Shown: positions 3,620 through 52,872 of the stretch, one piece after another
How the letters are laid out: each line of letters opens with the position of its first letter
How positions within the stretch are numbered: the first letter of the stretch is position 1
Assembly: GCF_018917145.1 (NCBI RefSeq)
Contig: NZ_JAHLOD010000025.1
Span: 1-53,508 of the forward strand
Reading direction: 5' to 3'
Length of the DNA: 53,508 nucleotides
Origin: Clostridium bornimense
Lineage (GTDB): Bacteria; Bacillota; Clostridia; Clostridiales; Clostridiaceae
Position numbers and translations under genes: made by a program
Notes under the pieces: generated by a model
What the model was told of the DNA's origin: nothing
Databases searched by the model: none
Seen by the model: the letters and a program-made list of their open reading frames with translations, nothing else

Positions 3620-4549
3620 ATGGTGTATAAATTGATATTTGTAATAGTATTACTTGTTTTAATAGTGGTGTATTTGTTTATACACCTTATTTTATTAAAG
3701 AAATCTATAAAAGATTTAAAAAATGATTTTATTTCAATAAAAGATACCAAGGAGGTTGAAAGGTATCTTACTATTAATTTTCCTGATAAAAATTTAGAGG
3801 AATTAGCAATGGAAATTAATGATTATATAGATAGTTATTTTAAAAACAATTATCAATTAAAAAATACTATAAGAGAAGTAAGAGGAGAAATAACAAATAT
3901 TTCACATGATTTAAGAACTCCATTAACTTCTATCTTAGGATATTTAGAACTTTTTAATGAAGAAGAATTAACAAATGAACAAAAAGAAATCATATCCGTT
4001 GTAAAAAGAAGGAGTATTGGCCTTAAAGATTTAATAGAACAACTTTATGAATATACTAGGCTAGAAAATAAGGAATATAATATTAAAATTGAAAAGATAG
4101 ACTTATATAAAGTATTACAAGAACATATTCTTGAGTTTTATATGGAATTTGAGAAAAAAAACATAGATTTTAAGTTAAATATGTCTAAAGAAGCAAAGCC
4201 AATATGGATAAATGGAGATATAAAATGTATAAAAAGAATTTTAACTAACTTAACAAATAATGCTTTGAAATATACAAATGGAGAAGCAGAAGTTAACCTT
4301 AAGGTAAAAGGTAATATTGTAAGTTTTACATATATAACGACAAGAGGATCTTTAACAGATTATGATATTAAACATATATTTGATCGATTTTATAAAAAAG
4401 ATTTATCAAGATCAGTAACTAATAGTAGTGGTCTTGGACTTACTATTACTAGAATTTTTACTGAGAGGATGGGTGGAAATATTTATGCCTATGGAGACGA
4501 TGAATATCTGTATATAGTATGCATTTTTCCTATGGTAGATTCTATATAG
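3620..4549 (+). CDS. Sensor histidine kinase of the intramembrane-sensing type (single N-terminal TM, no extracellular domain).
   Basis: HisKA H-box ISHDLRTPLTSILGYLEL, N-box LTNLTNNALKYT, G-box GLGLTITR. Confidence 0.85.
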   Translation: MVYKLIFVIVLLVLIVVYLFIHLILLKKSIKDLKNDFISIKDTKEVERYLTINFPDKNLEELAMEINDYIDSYFKNNYQLKNTIREVRGEITNISHDLRTPLTSILGYLELFNEEELTNEQKEIISVVKRRSIGLKDLIEQLYEYTRLENKEYNIKIEKIDLYKVLQEHILEFYMEFEKKNIDFKLNMSKEAKPIWINGDIKCIKRILTNLTNNALKYTNGEAEVNLKVKGNIVSFTYITTRGSLTDYDIKHIFDRFYKKDLSRSVTNSSGLGLTITRIFTERMGGNIYAYGDDEYLYIVCIFPMVDSI

Positions 4550-4673
4550 TAAACTAGTATAATTAAGTGTTGTTTATTGATAGGTCAGTAAAAACAGCAC
4601 AATTTGATTAATAAATGTGAATATTATTTGTCACTTTATCAGAAGATTGTAAGAAGCTACATGTAAAATATAA

Positions 4674-4784
4674 ACCATAGTAGATGATGAGGTGATAAAA
4701 AAATTTAATCAAACTATAGTAATGATTACTCATAGTGAAGAAATAGCTCAACTAGCAGATAGAATTGAGTATACAAAGCGATGA
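4674..4784 (+). pseudogene. Remnant C-terminus of an ABC ATPase (last ~36 codons), with no N-terminal part.
   Basis: Translates to TIVDDEVIKKFNQTIVMITHSEEIAQLADRIEYTKR*. This is the H-loop (ITHS) and C-terminal tail of a MacB/LolD-type ATPase, and no Walker motifs lie upstream. Confidence 0.5.
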
Positions 4785-5010
4785 GATGTTTGTAAGAATT
4801 GATATTGAAGATAATGGTATAGGAATAAAAGAAGAAGAACTCCCTAAAATATTTGCTAGATTTTATAGAGAAAAAGATGTTGGAGATATAGAAGGAATAG
4901 GAATAGGATTATATTTAACTAGGGAAATAGTATCTAAACATGAAGGATATATAAAGGTAAACTCTAATGATGAGGGATCTAAATTTTCTGTTTATTTGCC
5001 TAATAAATAA
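4765..5010 (+). pseudogene. Remnant HATPase_c C-terminus of a histidine kinase, fused to the ABC fragment by a deletion.
   Basis: RIDIEDNGIGIKEEELPKIFARFYR...GIGIGLYLTREIV gives the G1/G2 boxes only. There is no HisKA domain and it starts with TTG inside the ABC remnant. Confidence 0.55.
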
Positions 5011-5104
5011 GTAAGGAATTAAACATATTAAGTTTGTTAATATTAGTACTCTATGATATTATATAAGCCGATATTAAATTGAAAACATAGGAGGAAATGA
5101 AAAG

Positions 5105-8880: not shown

Positions 8881-8885
8881 TGTCA

Positions 8886-9050
8886 AGGTATAGTTTCATG
8901 TACCTTTAATTAAAATATGCTTATGTAATAAATATAGAAACAACGCTTAAGTATAATAGCCAAATATAGCAACTAAAAACATAAATATACAACCATAATT
9001 ATGAAGTGTGAACTGCGAAATTATAATTAATATTTTATGTGTTACAAATA
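8886..9050 (+). repeat. Decayed partial copy (D) of the GC-rich intergenic repeat family. It matches the internal hairpin-'ACTTAAGTATAATAG'-'TGTGAACTG' portion of copy B.
   Basis: AAGGTATAGTTTCATGTACCTT hairpin followed by AAACAACGCTTAAGTATAATAG...TGTGAACTGCGAAATT...TTTTATGTGTTACAAAT, compared with B GAAGGTTGCACCTTC...AAACAACACTTAAGTATAATAG...TGTGAACTGTGAATTG...TTTTATGTGTTAATGCGG. Confidence 0.5.
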
Positions 9051-16120: not shown

Positions 16121-16141
16121 ACGAAATATAACATAATGAAT

Positions 16142-16208
16142 CTCGTATATAATCGATAATATGGATCGAAAGTTTCTACCTGCAAACCGTAAAAGTGCAG
16201 ACTACGAG
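16142..16208 (+). promoter_or_regulatory. Purine riboswitch aptamer, guanine/xanthine class (C at the specificity position).
   Basis: CUCGUAUAUAAUCGAUAAUAUGGAUCGAAAGUUUCUACCUGCAAACCGUAAAAGUGCAGACUACGAG. P1 is CUCGUA/UACGAG, the P2 loop is AAUAUGG, J2/3 is AAAGUUUCUACC, the P3 loop is ACCGUAAAA and J3/1 is GACU with C74. It is nearly identical to the B. subtilis xpt G-box. Confidence 0.9.
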
Positions 16209-16254
16209 GAGTTGTATTTCATTTGTATAGCAAAAGAAGATAGCTTTTGAAATA

Positions 16255-16311: not shown

Positions 16312-17646
16312 ATGAGTAAGAACAATGAGAATACTATTGGCTTAACTTACCAGGTAGATGATAATCCTTCATTACCGAAGAAAATTTTATTTGGACTTCA
16401 ACATATATTTGCAGCATTTTCAGGAATTGTTGTAGTTCCGTTGGTAATCGCAGGAAGCTTAGGCTTTGATAGTACAATGACAACAGCATTGATTAGTGCC
16501 TCTATTTTGGCATCAGGTATTGCAACTATAGTACAGGCAAGAGGTATTGGAAAAGTAGGATCAAAAGTTGCTTGTATTATGGGTACAGATTTTACATTTG
16601 TATCACCAGCAATTTCAGTAGGACAAACATTAGGAATGGCAGGTATAGTTGGAGCTACAATTTTGGGATCGTTTTTTGAAATTATTTTAAGTTATTTTAT
16701 AAAACCATTAATGAAGTTCTTTCCTCCAATAGTTACTGGAACTGTAGTATGTTTAATTGGCCTAACATTATTGCCAGTGTCAATAGATTGGGCTGCTGGA
16801 GGAAGTGGAGCAGCTGACTATGGAAGTTTAAAAAACTTATCTATTGCAATGATAGTAATGGTAATAACTCTAGTTCTGAATAGTTATGGCAAGGGAATGT
16901 TAAGCAGTGCATCTATTTTAATTGGAATGACTATAGGATATTTAATATGTATTCCTCTTGGAATGGTTGATTTTTCAGCTGTTAAAGAAGCAACATGGTT
17001 TTCAATGCCTAAAATATTTCAATATGGAGTAGTGTTTAATTGGAAAGCATTATTAGCATTTATACCAGCATATTTTGTTACTACAATAGAAACTGTTGGA
17101 TGTTTAAAGGCTATAGGGGAAACTTCTAATATAGAAATGGATGAAAAGAGAGTTGGAGCTGGAGTTTTAGCTGATGGAGTAGGTAGTATTGTTGGTGCTA
17201 CAGTGGGTTCTTTCTCAAATACATCTTTTAGTCAAAATGTAGGATTAATTTCTCTTACAAAAGTTGCAAGTAGGCATGTAGCAGTAATGGCAGGGACACT
17301 TTTAGTGATTTTGGGATTATTTCCTAAGTTAGCAGGTCTGATCAATGGAATTCCACAACCAGTACTTGGTGGTGTTGGAATAGTAATGTTTGGAACTGTA
17401 GCTGCGGCTGGAATTAAAACATTAAGTAGAGTAAAATTAAATGATAGGAATCTTTTAATAATAGCTACATCAATAGCTCTAGGATTAGGCGTAACATTTA
17501 GACCAGAAGTTATATCACAGTTACCAGAAGGATTACAAATGATATTTGCATCAGGAATTTCAACAGGAACAATTGTTTCATTAATACTAAACTTAGTTTT
17601 AAAAGAGAGTAAAGATGAAATTTTAGAAAGTACAGAAGAGGTGTAA
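16312..17646 (+). CDS. pbuX: NCS2-family xanthine permease.
   Basis: 444-aa 12-14 TM protein of the NCS2 (xanthine/uracil permease) family, downstream of a G-riboswitch and upstream of xpt. Confidence 0.85.
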
Positions 17647-18223: not shown

Positions 18224-18237
18224 AAATATATTGTGTG

Positions 18238-18272
18238 AAAGCTGCTACGCAAGAGCGTGGTAGCTTTTTTTA
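18238..18272 (+). terminator. Rho-independent terminator after xpt.
   Basis: GCTGCTACGC-AAGA-GCGTGGTAGC (with G-U wobbles) followed by TTTTTTTAT. Confidence 0.65.
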
Positions 18273-18429
18273 TTCAGTGTACAGTTATTGATAAAATTAC
18301 TTCACAAGAAGAATTTTTACCTAAATTGTGAAATTCTAATTGTAAATTATAATATATATATTTTAGGGAATTATATTAATATGTAATAAAGATTTTAAAA
18401 TGAAATAAAATTATAGGGGAGAGATTGAG

Positions 18430-29296: not shown

Positions 29297-29304
29297 AAGA
29301 GTAT

Positions 29305-29360
29305 AAAAGGAGTTATCATTAACAAAAGAAGGTTTGTTAGAGATAGCTCCTTTTATAATT
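29305..29360 (+). terminator. Rho-independent terminator after the radical-SAM gene.
   Basis: AAAAGGAGTTATC...GATAGCTCCTTTT followed by a T-run. Confidence 0.5.
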
Positions 29361-29517
29361 CAATCAATTTGCAATTTAATCAGTTTAGATAATCTGCTAT
29401 ATATACTGATATTTTATGTTATAAACAATTTTATTTTGTTTAAATTATAAAGAAAAATGTATATCTAGGTAATACAGTTTTCATACTAATATTATATAGA
29501 AGTGGAGGAGATATAAA

Positions 29518-32625: not shown

Positions 32626-33477
32626 GTGGTACCGATGAAAAATAAACTAATTGCCATAGTATTAACAACATCTATTATAGGGGGAGTAGGAAGTACAGCT
32701 TATGCTGCTGGAATAGGTTCTAATGATACTTCCAATGTAGTAGTACGTAAGTGTAGTTATAAGAAAAGACATGATAGGTTGTTTAAGAAGAGACATCCAT
32801 TCTACAATGGAGGATGCACTAACAGACCTAATAACGGCACAGAAAATGGAGATATCGATGAGATAATTCCACCTATTATAGGAGACAAACCATCAAAGGA
32901 TGATGTAATCCCACCAACAACAGAGGATAAACCATCAATAGATGAAGTAATCCCACCGACAACAGGAGATGAGTCATCAAAGGATGATGTAATTCCACCA
33001 ACAACAGGAGATGAATCATCAAAGGATGATGTAACTCCGCCAACAACAGACAATACACCAAGTGTTAATGATAAGTTTATGGCGCAGGTGGAACAAAAAA
33101 TATTTGAAAAGGTTAATGAAGAGAGAGCAAAAGCTGGAGTTTCAACATTATCATATAATAGTACCATGGAAAAGTATGCAAGAATAAAATCTCAAGATAT
33201 GGGAGATAAAGGATACTTCAATCATACAGATCTAGAAGGTAATCTAATAACTGTCCAAATGCAAAAAGACGGTGTAAGTTATAATGCTTGGGGAGAAAAT
33301 ATTGCATATATAGGCGGAGTATCTGATGCAGATGCTTTAGCAACACAATTTATGAAAAATTGGATGAACTCACAAGGACATAGAGAAAATATTCTATCAA
33401 CTAACTTTGCATCAGTTGGAGTTGGAGTTTATAAATCAGGAAATAGAGTTTACGCAACACAAGAATTTTATAGATAA
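32626..33477 (+). CDS. CAP/SCP (YkwD-like) domain protein, paralog 3. It has a cleavable signal peptide, a Cys/basic segment and a tandem P/T/D-rich repeat linker.
   Basis: Signal peptide MKNKLIAIVLTTSIIGGVGSTAYA, a (IPPTTGDESSKDDV)n linker and a C-terminal CAP domain (FEKVNEERAKAGVSTL...WGENIAYIGG...WMNSQGHRENIL...VGVGVY). Confidence 0.7.
   Translation: MVPMKNKLIAIVLTTSIIGGVGSTAYAAGIGSNDTSNVVVRKCSYKKRHDRLFKKRHPFYNGGCTNRPNNGTENGDIDEIIPPIIGDKPSKDDVIPPTTEDKPSIDEVIPPTTGDESSKDDVIPPTTGDESSKDDVTPPTTDNTPSVNDKFMAQVEQKIFEKVNEERAKAGVSTLSYNSTMEKYARIKSQDMGDKGYFNHTDLEGNLITVQMQKDGVSYNAWGENIAYIGGVSDADALATQFMKNWMNSQGHRENILSTNFASVGVGVYKSGNRVYATQEFYR
32863..33060 (+). repeat. About 4.5 tandem copies of a 42/45-bp repeat encoding the 14/15-aa unit IPPTTGDESSKDDV inside CAP paralog 3.
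   Basis: Direct reading: ATAATTCCACCTATTATAGGAGACAAACCATCAAAGGATGATGTA / ATCCCACCAACAACAGAGGATAAACCATCAATAGATGAAGTA / ATCCCACCGACAACAGGAGATGAGTCATCAAAGGATGATGTA / ATTCCACCAACAACAGGAGATGAATCATCAAAGGATGATGTA / ACTCCGCCAACAACAGAC... Confidence 0.85.
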
Positions 33478-36147: not shown

Positions 36148-37044
36148 TTATATATCATATTGGACTACAGTAAACATGCCACCTACTCCTGGCGCGCCGT
36201 TATTAGTTGTATGGTGAGGCATATGACAATGCATAGGCCAAATTCCAGGATTTTTAGCAAGGAATTCTATGTCCCAAGTCTCACCAGAAGCTACTAATAT
36301 GGTATTTTTATAGATTTGAGTTTCTTTTTTTATAGGAAATCCATCAGCACCTACTACTTTAAATTGATGTCCATGAAGATGTATAGGATGATGATGCATT
36401 TGAATATTCCCAAATCTAACTTTAACTTTATCACCATAAGACACATGAAGAGGTTCTGTTGAAGGATAACATTTTCCATTCATAGTGAAAAAATTAAATT
36501 CTGGCATTTTAAAAGTAAGATTATAAGTGCCAGAATCAATATCACCCCAAGGAAGGCTATTAACAGCCCATTCTTGTAACAAAATAAGATAATCTTTATA
36601 ATGTTTTTTATTGCAATATTTTGGATCTTCTATAATCAATCCACCAAAGAGACCAGCATTATCTTGTACAGCTACATTGACATGAGAATGATACATGTAG
36701 GTTCCAGGGGGATTTTTTATTGTAAATTCATAGTCAAAATATTCTCCAGGATATATGAATGGAGATGGCTCTATTGGGGGAACTCCGTCCATGTTGTTAG
36801 GTACTTCTAATCCATGCCAGTGTACGCTGGTTTTTTCAGGAAGATTATTTATTACTCTTATACAGATTCTATCACCAGGGAAAACTCTAATAGTTGGTCC
36901 TGGGACAGAACCATTATATCCCCAGGCTTTAATGAAAAGTCCTGGAATTAATTCATTTAATACTTCTTCAGCTATTAATGTGAAGTGTTTTACTCCATTT
37001 TTATAAGTAAAAGATAAGTTTTCTATACCAGGCGTTATTACCAT
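36148..37044 (-). CDS. Small (two-cupredoxin-domain) multicopper oxidase.
   Basis: Copper-ligand histidine clusters SVHWHGLEV, YHSHVN, HPIHLHGH and HCHMPHH. Confidence 0.75.
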   Translation of the reverse strand: MVITPGIENLSFTYKNGVKHFTLIAEEVLNELIPGLFIKAWGYNGSVPGPTIRVFPGDRICIRVINNLPEKTSVHWHGLEVPNNMDGVPPIEPSPFIYPGEYFDYEFTIKNPPGTYMYHSHVNVAVQDNAGLFGGLIIEDPKYCNKKHYKDYLILLQEWAVNSLPWGDIDSGTYNLTFKMPEFNFFTMNGKCYPSTEPLHVSYGDKVKVRFGNIQMHHHPIHLHGHQFKVVGADGFPIKKETQIYKNTILVASGETWDIEFLAKNPGIWPMHCHMPHHTTNNGAPGVGGMFTVVQYDI

Positions 37045-37963: not shown

Positions 37964-38190
37964 AAGGAGCTGTCGTACAAAGGAGTTAGAGATTAGAGTG
38001 CGGCAGTTTTTTCAGCAAAATAGAATATCAGGGCACAAGTACGAGGGCACAAGGCACAGGTATGTATCAGTGCACAGCATCAGAGCTGTGCACTAAATTG
38101 TGCCTTGTTCCATCTAACCTGTGTCATGTCTTTTCTATAATAAAAGGAGGTATCGCTGCTTTTCCTTTCTTAATGCGACACCTCCTTGTA
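37964..38190 (+). repeat. Copy A, the short form (~230 bp), of a GC-rich structured intergenic repeat family. It has a 5' 'AGATTAGAGTGCRGCAGTTTTTTCAGCAAAATAGAATATCAGKGCACAAGTAYGAGGGCACAAGGCACAGG' module, an internal CAGTGCACAG/CTGTGCACT hairpin and a 3' SD/anti-SD hairpin.
   Basis: About 94% identical to copy B over the 88-nt 5' module. The 3' hairpin is AAAAGGAGGTATCGC-loop-GCGACACCTCCTT. Local GC is far above the flanking DNA. It lies between convergent yaaA and the lipase gene, with the hairpin end 20 nt past the lipase stop. Confidence 0.8.
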
Positions 38191-42026: not shown

Positions 42027-42560
42027 GCAGGAACTGTGTACAAAGAAGTCAGATTAGAGTGCAGCAGTTTTTTCAGCAAAATAGAATATCAGTGCACAAG
42101 TATGAGGGCACAAGGCACAGGGATATATCAGTGCACAGTGATGGATGAAGTTCCCTTTGGGGAATTTCTGAGATTTTAAGTGCCACAATTTTGTACATAG
42201 AATAAGTTAGTTTTCTTAAGGTACTTGTATTTGATATAGAACTGTTACGGGAGGCTAATGAAGGTTGCACCTTCATATAGCTTGTAGTGGGAACCCATGA
42301 TTAATGAAAACAACACTTAAGTATAATAGTTTTATATATGCACTAAACATATCTATAAACACAATTCTAATTCGCTGTCCGCAGGACTTATAATATTTTC
42401 TCCACAGGGGAAAATTAACCGACATTGTGAACTGTGAATTGAACATAGGATATTTTTCCCATCGAGGAAAATTAACTGAAACTGTGCACTGAATTGTGCC
42501 ATAAGAAAAGGAGGTATCGCTCTAACAACTTTTTATGTGTTAATGCGGCACCTCCATATT
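42027..42560 (+). repeat. Copy B, the long form (~534 bp), of the GC-rich structured repeat family. It has the same 5' and 3' modules as copy A plus a ~340-bp segment inserted in the loop of the CAGTGCACAG/CTGTGCACT hairpin.
   Basis: Direct alignment with A. The internal segment contains a GAAGGTTGCACCTTC hairpin, AAACAACACTTAAGTATAATAG and a tandem sub-repeat (TCTCCACAGGGGAAAATTAACCGACATTGTGAACTGTGAATTG / TCCCATCGAGGAAAATTAACTGAAACTGTGCACTGAATTG). The 3' SD/anti-SD hairpin AAAAGGAGGTATCGC...GCGGCACCTCC ends 5 nt before the stop of the minus-strand gene 42565-42957. Confidence 0.8.
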
Positions 42561-42564
42561 TTTA

Positions 42565-42957
42565 TTAGTTTTCACTAAAGCCAAAAATATTTCTTTTATT
42601 ATAAATAAATATAAACATAAGTACAGGTAGAACAAGTGATATTATTAATCCTAAGAGATTGAATCCATTAAATATTATAGATGAAATAATAGAAAGTATT
42701 TCACCTATAAAGTAACCATAGACTCCTATAGATTTTTTCATGAGAATTAATATTGTAGATATTCCAATAACTATAGATAAAATTAAACTTACTATTAAAA
42801 TAGAGTTTGAGGGCATTTCCATACCCATTGATGTATAAGCTTTCTTTATAGAATCATTGAAAGCAAATATAGCAAAATAGCTAATCAGATTAGAAGCAAA
42901 ACCAATTAGTGTTAACACAGATATTGTAATAATTCCTCCGCCTAGTTTATTTTCCAT
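42565..42957 (-). CDS. Small polytopic membrane protein, hypothetical.
   Basis: Four hydrophobic helices in a 130-aa ORF. Confidence 0.4.
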   Translation of the reverse strand: MENKLGGGIITISVLTLIGFASNLISYFAIFAFNDSIKKAYTSMGMEMPSNSILIVSLILSIVIGISTILILMKKSIGVYGYFIGEILSIISSIIFNGFNLLGLIISLVLPVLMFIFIYNKRNIFGFSEN

Positions 42958-52465: not shown

Positions 52466-52860
52466 GTTAGAAAAAGAGGTGTCGCATTAACAAATGAAAA
52501 ATTGTTAGCGATACCTCTTTTTCAATTAAGACAATTTAATCAATTTACAATTCACAATTTTAAGGCAAAGGTAAAGGTAATTTACAATTCACTCAATTCA
52601 AGCAATTCGCAATGGTGGTTAATTTTCCCCTGTGGGGGAAATTTTATAGTCCTGCGGACGGCGAATTACAATTGTATTTATAGATGTATTTAGTGCATAT
52701 ATAAAACTATTATACTTAAGTGTTGTTTTTCATAAATTATGAGTTCCTACTACAAGCTACATGAAAGCAAAGCTTTCATTAACTGTGCCCTGATATATAC
52801 CTGTACCTTGTGCCGTCATACTTGTGCCTTGCTAAAAAAGATGCTGCATTTCTTTGTATT
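52466..52860 (-). repeat. Copy C (~395 bp, inverted orientation) of the GC-rich structured repeat family.
   Basis: The reverse complement reads ...TGCAGCATCTTTTTTAGCAAGGCACAAGTATGACGGCACAAGGTACAGGTATATATCAGGGCACAG...ATGAAAGCAAAGCTTTCAT...AACAACACTTAAGTATAATAG...CCCCCACAGGGGAAAATTAACC...AAAAAGAGGTATCGC-loop-GCGACACCTCTTTTT. Its hairpin end lies 25 nt past the histidine kinase stop. Confidence 0.75.
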
Positions 52861-52872
52861 ACAGACCCTTTT

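What the first reader, a model, noticed from the sequence alone, without database searches (positions are those of the whole stretch)
42133..42500. Copy B equals copy A plus a ~340-bp cargo inserted exactly in the loop of the CAGTGCACAG/CTGTGCACT hairpin
In copy A the two arms CAGTGCACAG and CTGTGCACT are separated by only 8 nt (CATCAGAG). In B the same arms are ~340 nt apart. The intervening sequence has its own features: the GAAGGTTGCACCTTC hairpin, an extended -10-like ACTTAAGTATAATAG, and a tandem ~40-nt sub-repeat (...GGGGAAAATTAACCGACATTGTGAACTGTGAATTG / ...GAGGAAAATTAACTGAAACTGTGCACTGAATTG). Copy C carries a related internal segment. The decayed copy D retains only this internal segment. 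This nested, modular organisation resembles composite MITEs or RNA elements with variable inserts. It suggests the hairpin loop is an insertion or recombination hotspot.
Basis: seen in the sequence. Interest (0 to 1): 0.65.

Follow-up and report, generated by a model that had tools for sequence, protein, structure and literature searches.

The report
Insertion hotspot in palindromic intergenic repeat
An uncultured human-gut Clostridium carries a dispersed family of hairpin-forming intergenic repeats, and the tip motif of the hairpin (CAGTGCACAG) is a landing and exchange site. In this window the site holds a 282-base non-coding module, and in other strains the same nucleotide position holds an IS110-family insertion sequence.

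Summary
Arms CAGTGCACAG/CTGTGCACT are 8 nt apart in copy A and 343 nt apart in copy B. However, B lacks A's loop and 37 nt of A's right arm.

The repeat unit is: a + strand terminator hairpin (T1), a long imperfect palindrome built of GCACAAG/CWGTGCA motifs, and a second hairpin (T2) that terminates the convergent gene.

Metagenome contigs from other strains support the hotspot idea:
- At locus B, at least 9 strains have a degenerate IS110-family element directly after TATCAGTGCACAG instead of the cargo.
- The same IS end follows AGTGCACAG at four distinct loci.
- At locus A, strains carry an 8-nt loop, +21 nt, the full B-type cargo, an IS110 end, or IS256-like insertions.

The cargo (42139-42420) is a separate hairpin-ended non-coding module. 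It has one covarying hairpin and a strongly conserved AAAACAACACTTAAGTATAATAG block. It shares no ends with the IS110 element, so its mobiliser is unknown.

Deletions also occur. The window's copy A is probably a 21-nt deletion allele. At locus F the internal segment is probably ancestral.

The closest known analogue is REP/BIME elements targeted by IS621 and ISPpu9/10, including the ssr9 MITE. I rate it a new variant of a known kind, of moderate interest.

The parts
42034..42073 (+). T1 of copy B: hairpin CTGTGTAC...GTGCAGCAG followed by TTTTTT. It looks like an intrinsic terminator. No co-oriented gene lies upstream here, so it belongs to the repeat.
   Evidence: Sequence. It is homologous to A's T1 at 37970-38012. 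The G.U pairs form only on the + strand. The + strand folds better than the - strand.
42087..42138 (+). Left arm of copy B: GCACAAG/GGCACAGG motifs ending in the near-palindromic tip CAGTGCACAG.
   Evidence: The arm is shared with A (38026-38077) and C (52783-52834, minus strand).
42139..42420 (+). Cargo module, 282 nt, running from TGATGG to TTAACC. Its features are HP1 42147-42168, HP2 42258-42276, the conserved block 42306-42329 with TATAAT at 42322-42327, HP3 42377-42387 and HP4 42396-42414. The stretch 42139-42255 is absent from copy C.
   Evidence: Alignment of independent copies (A2; A3). nhmmer hits in B, C, L026, L031 and L019. In other strains 42139-42423 is replaced by an IS110-like element plus about 60 nt that follow it.
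42424..42500 (+). Right-arm region of copy B: ATTGTGAACTGTGAATTG, then a remnant of an older cargo 3' end (TTTTTCCCATCGAGGAAAATTAAC), then CTGTGCACTGAATTGTGCC.
   Evidence: This stretch is kept in the IS110-bearing allele L020, whereas the first sub-repeat is not. The two sub-repeats are 67% identical.
42510..42555 (.). T2 hairpin GGAGGTATCGC...GCGGCACCTCC. The T-run lies on the minus-strand side, so it would terminate the convergent gene 42565-42957 (minus strand).
   Evidence: T2 hairpins in A, C and F are homologous. In A, B and C, T2 abuts the 3' end of a convergent gene.
37970..38185 (+). Copy A: T1 37970-38012, left arm 38026-38077, loop CATCAGAG 38078-38085, right arm 38086-38128, T2 38146-38185.
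   Evidence: Allelic series at this locus in other strains.
52470..52870 (-). Copy C: weak T1, left arm ending in CAGGGCACAG, a 5'-truncated cargo (52617-52782), a right arm of TGAATTG-type motifs, and T2.
   Evidence: It is 94-100% conserved across 10 other assemblies.
8885..9020 (+). Copy D: a decayed internal segment only (hairpin, AAACAACGCTTAAGTATAATAG, GTGTGAACTGCGAAATT), about 380 nt upstream of the glycogen phosphorylase gene.
   Evidence: The intergenic length is constant across strains.
29302..29400 (-). Copy F: a decayed left-arm tip (ATCAGTATATAT), AAATTG-type right arm and a T2-like hairpin. This is the short allele lacking the internal segment.
   Evidence: A long allele (+136 nt, carrying the promoter-like block) occurs in L003, L030 and L031. 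The sister species L019 has the full element here.
18230..18345 (+). Copy G: terminator, CAGTGTACAG and AAATTGTGAAATT motifs. A decayed fragment.
4544..4582 (-). Copy E: an isolated promoter-like block AACAACACTTAATTATACTAG with 2 mismatches.

Best explanation
The region is one filled copy of a dispersed, mosaic intergenic repeat of an uncultured human-gut Clostridium-like bacterium.

**Base unit.** It is a double-terminator palindrome cassette:
- T1, a + strand intrinsic-terminator-like hairpin.
- A long imperfect palindrome whose arms are arrays of GGCACAAG-type and CWGTGCA-type motifs.
- T2, a hairpin that terminates the convergent neighbouring gene.

**The hotspot (shown).** The tips of the arms approximate the 10-bp palindrome CAGTGCACTG. 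The position just 3' of ...GTGCACAG is a preferred site for DNA gain, loss and exchange.
- An IS110-family insertion sequence (a family that uses an RNA guide and is known to home to REP/BIME hairpins) is inserted there repeatedly.
- A separate 282-nt non-coding module, the 'cargo', also occupies that position in copy B.

**The cargo.**
- It has motif-plus-hairpin ends on both sides.
- It has an internal hairpin kept by compensatory changes.
- It has a strongly conserved AAAACAACACTTAAGTATAATAG block that points toward T2.

**Inferred, not shown.**
- The cargo moves or is exchanged as a unit. This could be conservative recombination at the GTGCAC core by a recombinase supplied in trans, or ectopic gene conversion through the shared arms.
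- The conserved block drives a small RNA that ends at T2.
- In parallel, slippage between the repeated motifs removes sequence. This produced the window's minimal copy A.
For: **Repeat family and modules:**

**Strand asymmetry of folding:** A folds at -91.4 versus -81.9 kcal/mol and B at -152.5 versus -125.1 kcal/mol. G.U pairs in T1 and HP4 form only on the + strand.

**Same-locus polymorphism with matching flanks**
- Locus B: cargo in the window, L001 and L002; an IS110-like element in L020-L029 and L051-L059.
- Locus A: 8-nt loop (window); +21 nt (L007); cargo (L031 on the YaaA side, L026 on the lipase side); IS110 end on the right arm (L029, L025); IS256-like insertions (L003, L030, L020, L062)..

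**IS110 targeting**
- The IS110 left end CATTCCTGTTTTAAGAC directly follows AGTGCACAG at 4 distinct loci.
- The IS ORF matches PF01548 DEDD_Tnp_IS110.

**Cargo as a unit**
- The empty junction GTGCAC^TGTGAACTG occurs in three flank haplogroups and the filled one in a single haplogroup. Parsimony therefore favours gain, or precise loss.
- Both cargo ends abut AGTGCACAG when read inward.
- HP2 covaries: GGT/ACC, GGC/GCC and AGC/GCT.
- The promoter-like block is identical in a sister species and survives in the decayed copies D and F.

**Literature**
- IS110 elements insert into REP elements (PMC11208160).
- ISPpu9 and the ssr9 MITE occupy REP/BIME sites in separable modules (PMC12288879).
- ISPpu10 requires a target hairpin (bioRxiv 10.64898/2026.03.19.712850).
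Against: - No intact IS110 transposase was seen. The locus B copy is frameshifted and lacks the C-terminal domain. L060 and L061 are contig fragments.
- The cargo shares no terminal or internal similarity with the IS110 element, so its mobiliser is unknown.
- There is no clear target-site duplication. The junctions are ambiguous within the repeated GTGCAC.
- At locus F the internal segment looks ancestral.
- The filled locus A allele is reconstructed from two contigs of one metagenome. One of them (L026) has RuvA rather than YaaA beyond T1, so a rearrangement or an assembly join through the repeat cannot be excluded.
- No expression data exist. The TATAAT has no -35 or TG motif.
- Only about 5 independent cargo copies were available.
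Confidence: 0.55

Rival explanations
1. Deletion-only model. The long form (arms plus internal segment) is the ancestral repeat unit. Short forms such as copy A arise only by deletion, through slippage or recombination between the repeated CWGTGCA/GGCACA motifs. There is no targeted insertion of the cargo. IS elements land here simply because the region is neutral.
For: - Locus F: the sister species has the full element, while this species has decayed long and short alleles.
- An 18-nt and a 14-nt deletion lie between direct repeats in the arms.
- The window's copy A equals the L007 allele minus 21 nt.
- The L007 junction is flanked by GTGCAC repeats in the filled allele.
Against: - The same empty junction GTGCAC^TGTGAACTG occurs in three flank haplogroups, which would need repeated identical deletions.
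- The IS110 element sits at the identical nucleotide at four loci, which is not random landing.
- Locus B alleles differ by block replacement, not by deletion.
Confidence: 0.25
2. The cargo is a MITE-like passenger of the resident IS110-family element, as MITEPpu9/ssr9 is of ISPpu9. It would be mobilised in trans by that recombinase and its guide RNA.
For: - The cargo and the IS occupy the same insertion point.
- There is a literature precedent for separable tnp and sRNA modules in REP/BIME sites (PMC12288879).
- The cargo carries a promoter-like block and hairpins consistent with an sRNA gene.
Against: The defining feature, end sequences shared with the IS (A/B boxes), was tested and not met:
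- BLAST found nothing.
- Smith-Waterman scores were at shuffle level.
- The left ends differ: CATTCCTG... in the IS versus TGATGGAT... in the cargo.
- Only one IS right end is known, and it comes from a degenerate copy.
Confidence: 0.12
3. The whole unit is one structured non-coding RNA gene with a long closing stem (the arms) and a variable inserted domain.
For: - The folds are strong: z = -7.3 for A and z = -5.2 for B on the + strand.
- G.U pairs favour the + strand.
- HP2 covaries.
Against: - T1 with its U-run lies upstream of the left arm, and A has no promoter.
- The arms pair through repeated motifs rather than through compensatory changes, and they differ greatly between copies.
- IS insertions and large deletions are tolerated in natural strains.
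- There is no Rfam match.
Confidence: 0.05
4. Assembly artefact. The apparent alleles are mis-joins of a collapsed repeat.
For: - Many contigs end inside the element.
- L026 joins the lipase gene to RuvA through the element.
- The window's 8-nt-loop allele was not seen in any other assembly.
Against: - B is reproduced at 99.8-100% in two independent assemblies.
- C is reproduced in 10 assemblies.
- The IS110 allele of B appears in more than 15 contigs from different samples that span both flanks.
Confidence: 0.03

Closest known systems
REP/BIME (REPIN) elements as targets of IS110-family elements (IS621 in E. coli; ISPpu9 and ISPpu10 in P. putida)
   Same: - Extragenic imperfect palindromes at the 3' ends of genes, dispersed and mosaic.
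- An IS110-family (DEDD) element inserted at one fixed nucleotide of the palindrome at several loci.
- The hairpin context of the target.
- (PMC11208160; PMC12288879; bioRxiv 10.64898/2026.03.19.712850.)
   Different: - The host is a Firmicute (Clostridium-like).
- The unit is much longer (about 220 nt) and includes two terminator hairpins.
- The arms are arrays of 7-9-nt motifs rather than a single 35-nt REP.
- No RAYT was seen, and no intact transposase or guide RNA was identified.
MITEPpu9 / ssr9 module of ISPpu9
   Same: A small promoter-bearing non-coding module found alone at the same kind of palindromic target that the IS uses. The organisation is modular, with transposase-only and sRNA-only forms.
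   Different: MITEPpu9 shares A'/B' end boxes with ISPpu9. Here the cargo shares no ends with the IS110 element.
Modular intergenic repeats with size classes: Neisseria Correia elements (full and internally deleted forms) and pneumococcal BOX (boxA-boxB(n)-boxC). This comparison rests on my own knowledge.
   Same: Dispersed non-coding repeats with inverted ends, long and short forms that differ by an internal block, strong predicted hairpins, and promoter- or terminator-like parts.
   Different: No TA or other target duplication was found. The internal block here is itself a hairpin-ended unit, and it is exchanged with an IS at the same nucleotide.
IS200/IS605-derived PATEs (palindrome-associated transposable elements). 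This comparison rests on my own knowledge and on the abstract of PMC6006769.
   Same: The cargo has subterminal hairpins about 8-9 nt from each end, no target duplication, and always lies 3' of a fixed short sequence (GTGCACAG).
   Different: No TnpA (Y1) or TnpB gene was seen in about 150 kb examined. The two end hairpins are not clearly related in direct orientation. Strand-specific single-strand transposition could not be tested.

Membership tests
REP/BIME (REPIN) | Imperfect palindromes confined to extragenic DNA, often between convergent genes | tested here: met
   Copies A-H are all intergenic. The A hairpin folds at -91.4 kcal/mol, z = -7.3.
REP/BIME (REPIN) | High copy number across the genome | tested here: inconclusive
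   About 10 full or partial copies were found in about 150 kb examined, and contigs often end inside the element. No complete genome was available. The GTDB and JGI scans gave 0 hits.
REP/BIME (REPIN) | An associated RAYT (Y1 transposase) gene flanked by REPs | not testable with these tools
   No Y1_Tnp family appears among the Pfam annotations of genes called in the loci returned, nor among the 10 window ORFs scanned.
IS110-family target site | An IS with a DEDD (PF01548) recombinase inserted at one fixed position of a conserved sequence at several loci, without inverted terminal repeats | tested here: met
   PF01548 hit at E = 7e-10. AGTGCACAG|CATTCCTGTTTTAAGAC occurs at 4 loci.
IS110-family target site | A bridge/seek RNA whose loops match the target and the donor | not tested
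   Only a degenerate right end and about 115 nt of left end were available. Rfam gave nothing.
MITE derived from the resident IS (MITEPpu9-like) | End sequences shared with the autonomous element | tested here: not met
   No BLAST similarity. Local alignment scores are at shuffle level.
Classical MITE | Terminal inverted repeats plus a target-site duplication | tested here: inconclusive
   Both cargo ends read AGTGCACAG plus a hairpin. Because the flanking GTGCAC is itself a palindrome, an inverted repeat, a direct repeat and a duplicated target cannot be told apart. No duplication flanks the whole T1-T2 unit.
IS200/IS605 PATE | Subterminal hairpins, insertion 3' of a fixed tetra- or pentanucleotide, no duplication, and a TnpA(Y1) in the genome | tested here: inconclusive
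   The geometry fits: HP1 lies 8 nt from the left end and HP4 6-9 nt from the right end. No TnpA was seen, and the genome is incomplete.
Known structured RNA family (Rfam 15) | A covariance-model match at or near the gathering score | tested here: not met
   There was no hit on any copy at gathering threshold. At E <= 10 only chance-level hits to eukaryotic snoRNA and miRNA models appeared.
   TATAAT is perfect and conserved, but there is no -35 and no TG. The scan did not call it. Its function as a promoter remains possible but untested.

The most novel reading that the evidence does not exclude
The 282-nt cargo is a self-contained mobile small-RNA gene of a new kind. It would be a hairpin-ended, promoter-bearing module that homes to the tip of a palindromic repeat without sharing ends with any transposase-bearing element. 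One possibility is an orphan guide-like or decoy RNA. Its transcript would run into the CUGUGCAC repeats, which match the very palindrome that the resident IS110 recombinase targets. It could thereby modulate or hijack RNA-guided recombination at these sites.
Probability: 0.1. Interest if true: 0.8.

Novelty: new variant of a known kind. Interest (0 to 1): 0.5.

Why it matters
- **Extends a known pattern to gut Firmicutes.** IS110-family elements homing to palindromic extragenic repeats have been described mainly in Proteobacteria. This case is in an uncultured gut Clostridium-like bacterium, and natural strain-level alleles (empty, scarred, IS-filled, module-filled) are visible in public metagenomes.
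- **Practical effect on assemblies.** The repeat breaks metagenome assemblies. It may also mark a synteny change, though that rests on one contig that could be an assembly join.
- **Possible natural cassette system.** If the cargo is a mobile sRNA gene that shares the IS110 landing site but not its ends, it would be a natural example of cassette exchange at an RNA-guided recombination site. It would also be a candidate regulator of that recombination.
- **Possible effect on neighbouring genes.** The unit supplies terminators, and perhaps a promoter, to neighbouring genes. Its gain and loss may therefore alter their expression.

Tried and rejected
**Searches that found nothing useful**
- Exact-pattern scans of the GTDB species genomes with the left-arm 22-mer and the promoter-block 21-mer: 0 hits each.
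- The same two patterns in JGI metagenomes: 0 hits each.
- Two cargo 18-19-mers in IMG/VR: one chance hit inside a coding region and 0 hits.
- blastn 'distant' against phages and plasmids: no match.
- Rfam at gathering and at E <= 10: nothing meaningful on the cargo or on the IS.
- Recovering further copies through spurious ORFs, using a 779-aa concatenation of stop-free translations: no hit.
- Lookup of the window's lipase protein: not on record.
- Literature search for the motif strings: only unrelated primer sequences.

**Readings considered and rejected**
- The cargo as a deletion derivative of the IS110 element: no similarity.
- A coding function for the cargo: 1-nt indels between copies, and no ORF conserved across copies.
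- The cargo of L003 at locus A as a second cargo family: its end CAATGTCGTC resembles the IS256-like end CAATGTCAGT seen in L030, so it is probably an ordinary IS.
- A dif/Xer site, an integron attC site, and an RSS-like reading of the heptamer (CACAGTG occurs inside the CAGTGCA repeats): considered from memory only, not supported by anything tested, and dropped.
Full report
**1. What is in the window**

The window is about 28% G+C chromosomal DNA with housekeeping genes.

The finding concerns copy B (about 42030-42556) of a repeat that also occurs as copy A (37970-38185, + strand) and copy C (52470-52870, minus strand).

- CAGTGCACAG lies at 38068 and 42129, and CTGTGCACT at 38086 and 42482. 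The arms are therefore 8 nt apart in A and 343 nt apart in B.
- The 10-mer with at most one mismatch occurs 7 times against 0.83 expected.
- A and B share 88 nt at 94% identity ending exactly at CAGTGCACAG.
- They also share CTGTGCACTRAATTGTGCC at 18 of 19 positions and a related terminal hairpin at 68% identity.
- B and C share the internal segment at 79% over 313 nt.
- Partial copies are D (8885-9020), E (4544-4582, minus strand), F (29302-29400, minus strand) and G (18230-18345).

However, 'B = A + insert' is an idealisation:
- B lacks A's loop CATCAGAG and 37 nt of A's right arm.
- C lacks the right-arm tip and the first 117 nt of the cargo.

**2. Anatomy of the repeat**

Reading on the + strand of A and B, the unit has three parts.

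- **T1.** A 9-bp stem (CTGTCGTAC/GTGCGGCAG in A) with two G.U pairs that form only on this strand, followed by T6. In A and C it follows a co-oriented gene. In B no such gene exists, so T1 belongs to the repeat.
- **A long imperfect palindrome.**
  - The left arm carries GGCACAAG-type motifs and ends in CAGTGCACAG.
  - The right arm carries the complementary motifs (CTGTGCA, CTTGTGCC, TGTGAATTG).
  - CAGTGCACTG is itself a 10-bp palindrome.
  - Some copies have tandem heptamers, for example (CAGTGCA)2 ... (CTGTGCA)3 in L026.
- **T2.** This is GGAGGTATCGC...GCGACACCTCC. Its T-run lies on the minus-strand side, and it abuts the 3' end of a convergent gene in A, B and C.

The + strand folds better than the minus strand: A at -91.4 versus -81.9 kcal/mol and B at -152.5 versus -125.1 kcal/mol, with z scores of -7.3 and -5.2 on the + strand. 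Rfam has no match.

**3. Where the sequence comes from**

Pattern scans of GTDB species genomes, JGI metagenomes, IMG/VR, phages and plasmids found nothing.

Exact-protein look-ups placed the window in human-gut metagenome assemblies, including Hadza and others. The best named relatives of its YaaA protein are Clostridium species at about 64% identity. A sister species exists at 81%. NCBI labels the IS110 protein described below 'uncultured Clostridium sp.'.

These look-ups supplied orthologous loci from many strains. That is the decisive evidence.

**4. Locus B in other strains**

In L020-L029 and L051-L059 the flanks match the window, but the 285 nt at 42139-42423 are replaced.

- Directly after TATCAGTGCACAG comes a 1.2-kb element, CATTCCTG...GTTGCACAG.
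- It has a 98-aa ORF that matches PF01548 (DEDD_Tnp_IS110, E = 7e-10) and a second frameshifted ORF. The C-terminal catalytic domain is missing.
- After the element come CATCAGCG (A's loop motif) and about 50 further nt.
- Both alleles rejoin at ATTGTGAACTGTGAATTGAACATAG.

The first sub-repeat belongs to the cargo.

**5. The IS110 element is site-specific for the tip motif**

The same left end follows AGTGCACAG at four loci:
- Locus B.
- The right arm of locus A, read on the other strand, in L029 and L025.
- L060, after a terminator and (CAGTGCA)2CAG.
- L061, after a different T1 and left arm. That contig has 25x coverage against about 5x for single-copy contigs of the same sample.

This matches what is known of the family. 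IS110 elements excise as circles and insert into specific sequences such as REP elements (PMC11208160). ISPpu9 and ISPpu10 insert into REP/BIME sites (PMC12288879). ISPpu10 needs a hairpin in the target (bioRxiv 10.64898/2026.03.19.712850).

**6. Locus A is an allelic series**

| Source | Sequence at the tip |
|---|---|
| Window | ...CAGTGCACAG\|CATCAGAG\|CTGTGCACT |
| L007 | the same, plus 21 nt (GTGTCAGTGCAC TGTGAACTG) after CAGTGCACAG |
| L062 and L020 | TAGTGCAC TGTGAACTG, then a loop (CATCAGAG in L062, CCTTAA in L020) |
| L031 (YaaA side) and L026 (lipase side), one metagenome | the L007 form with the full B-type cargo between GTGCAC and TGTGAACTG |
| L029, L025 | the IS110 end |
| L030, L032, L033, L039, L020, L062 | an IS256-family element in the left arm, flanked by GCRCAAGGC |
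| L003 | another IS256-like end |

- The empty junction GTGCAC^TGTGAACTG occurs in three flank haplogroups and the filled junction in one. This favours gain of the cargo, or precise loss.
- The window's own 8-nt loop equals L007 minus 21 nt and was seen in no other assembly. It is most simply a derived deletion allele.
- Caveat: beyond T1, L026 continues into RuvA and not YaaA. This means either a rearrangement through the repeat or an assembly join.

**7. Deletion also shapes the family**

- At locus F the sister species has a complete B-like element, including the 117 nt that C lacks.
- This species has a decayed 359-nt allele that retains AAAACAACACTTAAATATACTAG, and a 223-nt allele that lacks 136 nt. 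There is no duplication at the junction. Both alleles occur on both flank haplotypes.
- L014 lost 18 nt between GGCACAG repeats.
- L031 lost 14 nt between GGGCACAAG repeats.

**8. The cargo**

Five independent copies align: B, the locus A copy in L026/L031, the locus F copy of the sister species, H in L026, and the truncated C (alignments A2 and A3). In order, the module contains:

- HP1 (GAAATTCC-N-GGAATTTC), 8 nt from the left end.
- ATTTTAAGT.
- A variable stretch.
- HP2, ATGAAGGY-N3-RCCTTCAT, with compensatory changes (GGT/ACC, GGC/GCC, AGC/GCT).
- The most conserved block, AAAAACAACACTTAAGTATAATAG. It is identical in the sister species and still recognisable in the decayed copies D, E and F.
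- HP3 (GTCC-GCA-GGAC).
- HP4 (TTTTCCCC-ACA-GGGGAAAA), with U.G pairs only on the + strand.
- TTAACC.

Read inward from either side, the cargo begins AGTGCACAG plus 8-9 nt plus a TTCCCC/GGGGAA hairpin. Its ends therefore look like about 40-nt imperfect inverted repeats. Because the flanking GTGCAC is palindromic, inverted repeat, direct repeat and duplicated target cannot be told apart.

Other properties:
- Copies differ by 1-nt indels and share no ORF, so the cargo is non-coding.
- It has no similarity to the IS110 element.
- The TATAAT has no -35 and no TG, and the scan did not call it.
- It always points toward T2. In copy D it points toward the glycogen phosphorylase gene.

**9. Mechanism**

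Shown:
- A dispersed palindromic repeat.
- A fixed junction after GTGCACAG, where at least five different sequences follow.
- Repeated IS110 insertion at that junction.
- Presence and absence of the cargo at one locus.
- Slippage deletions.

Inferred:
- The cargo is a unit that is gained, lost or swapped at the GTGCAC core. This could be conservative site-specific recombination by an enzyme acting in trans, or gene conversion through the shared arms. The A and B left halves are 94% identical while their right halves are about 70% identical, which itself suggests conversion.
- The conserved block drives a small RNA that ends at T2.

I put 0.55 on this composite explanation. The rivals are:
- 0.25 on a deletion-only history.
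- 0.12 on the specific idea that the resident IS110 mobilises the cargo.
- 0.05 on a single structured RNA.
- 0.03 on an assembly artefact.

**10. Comparison and novelty**

The system works like REP/BIME elements targeted by IS621 and ISPpu9/10, with an sRNA-type passenger like MITEPpu9. It differs in several ways:
- The host is a Firmicute.
- The unit is about 220 nt and is flanked by two terminators.
- The arms are arrays of short motifs.
- The cargo does not share ends with the IS.

Membership as a MITE derived from this IS was tested and not met. REP/BIME membership is met for palindromy and extragenic location, is inconclusive for copy number, and cannot be tested for RAYT.

I rate it a new variant of a known kind, with interest 0.5.

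Noticed in passing
window 16123-16224: A purine riboswitch aptamer (80.7 bits) lies upstream of a xanthine/uracil permease gene (16312-17646) and a phosphoribosyltransferase gene.
   Followed up: no
window 32854-33063: Four or five tandem 42-nt (14-codon) repeats lie inside the third of three adjacent CAP-domain genes. The length of this gene varies between strains (266-280 aa).
   Followed up: no
window 36148-37044; L003 9260-9480; L030 17475-18089: The multicopper-oxidase gene next to YaaA is intact in the window. In L003 and L004 it is truncated to 143 aa, with a repeat fragment (terminator + TATCAGTGCACAG + TAGTGCAC + GGGGGGATTAAC) at the truncation point. In most other strains it is replaced by a 204-aa HTH/Terminase_5-type transposase-like gene.
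   Followed up: partly
L026 4640-4890 and 7560-7900: In the ERZ27279231 metagenome an A-type T1 and left arm adjoin RuvA rather than YaaA. This is a possible rearrangement through the repeat, or an assembly join. Another cargo-like copy, H, lies between queA and tgt. It keeps HP1, HP3 and HP4 but has lost the promoter-like block.
   Followed up: partly
L020 13890-15029; L030 19170-19772: A degenerate IS256-family element (Transposase_mut fragments, end CAATGTCAGTAAGC) is inserted in the left arm of locus A in many strains. It is flanked by GCACAAGGC/GCGCAAGGC, which looks like a 9-bp target duplication.
   Followed up: partly
window 8939-8959 and 9322: An isolated copy of the conserved promoter-like block lies about 360 nt upstream of the glycogen phosphorylase start. 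The spacing is constant in all strains examined, so it may be a domesticated promoter.
   Followed up: no
window 42129-42145; L026 4500-4545: The tandem CAGTGCA heptamers contain CACAGTG/CACTGTG at both cargo junctions. This is the same heptamer as the V(D)J recombination signal. It is almost certainly a coincidence.
   Followed up: no
window 4600-5100; L040 7435-7665: A 74-76-aa HATPase_c fragment ORF lies downstream of the histidine kinase gene 3620-4549, next to copy E. It is probably a pseudogene remnant.
   Followed up: no
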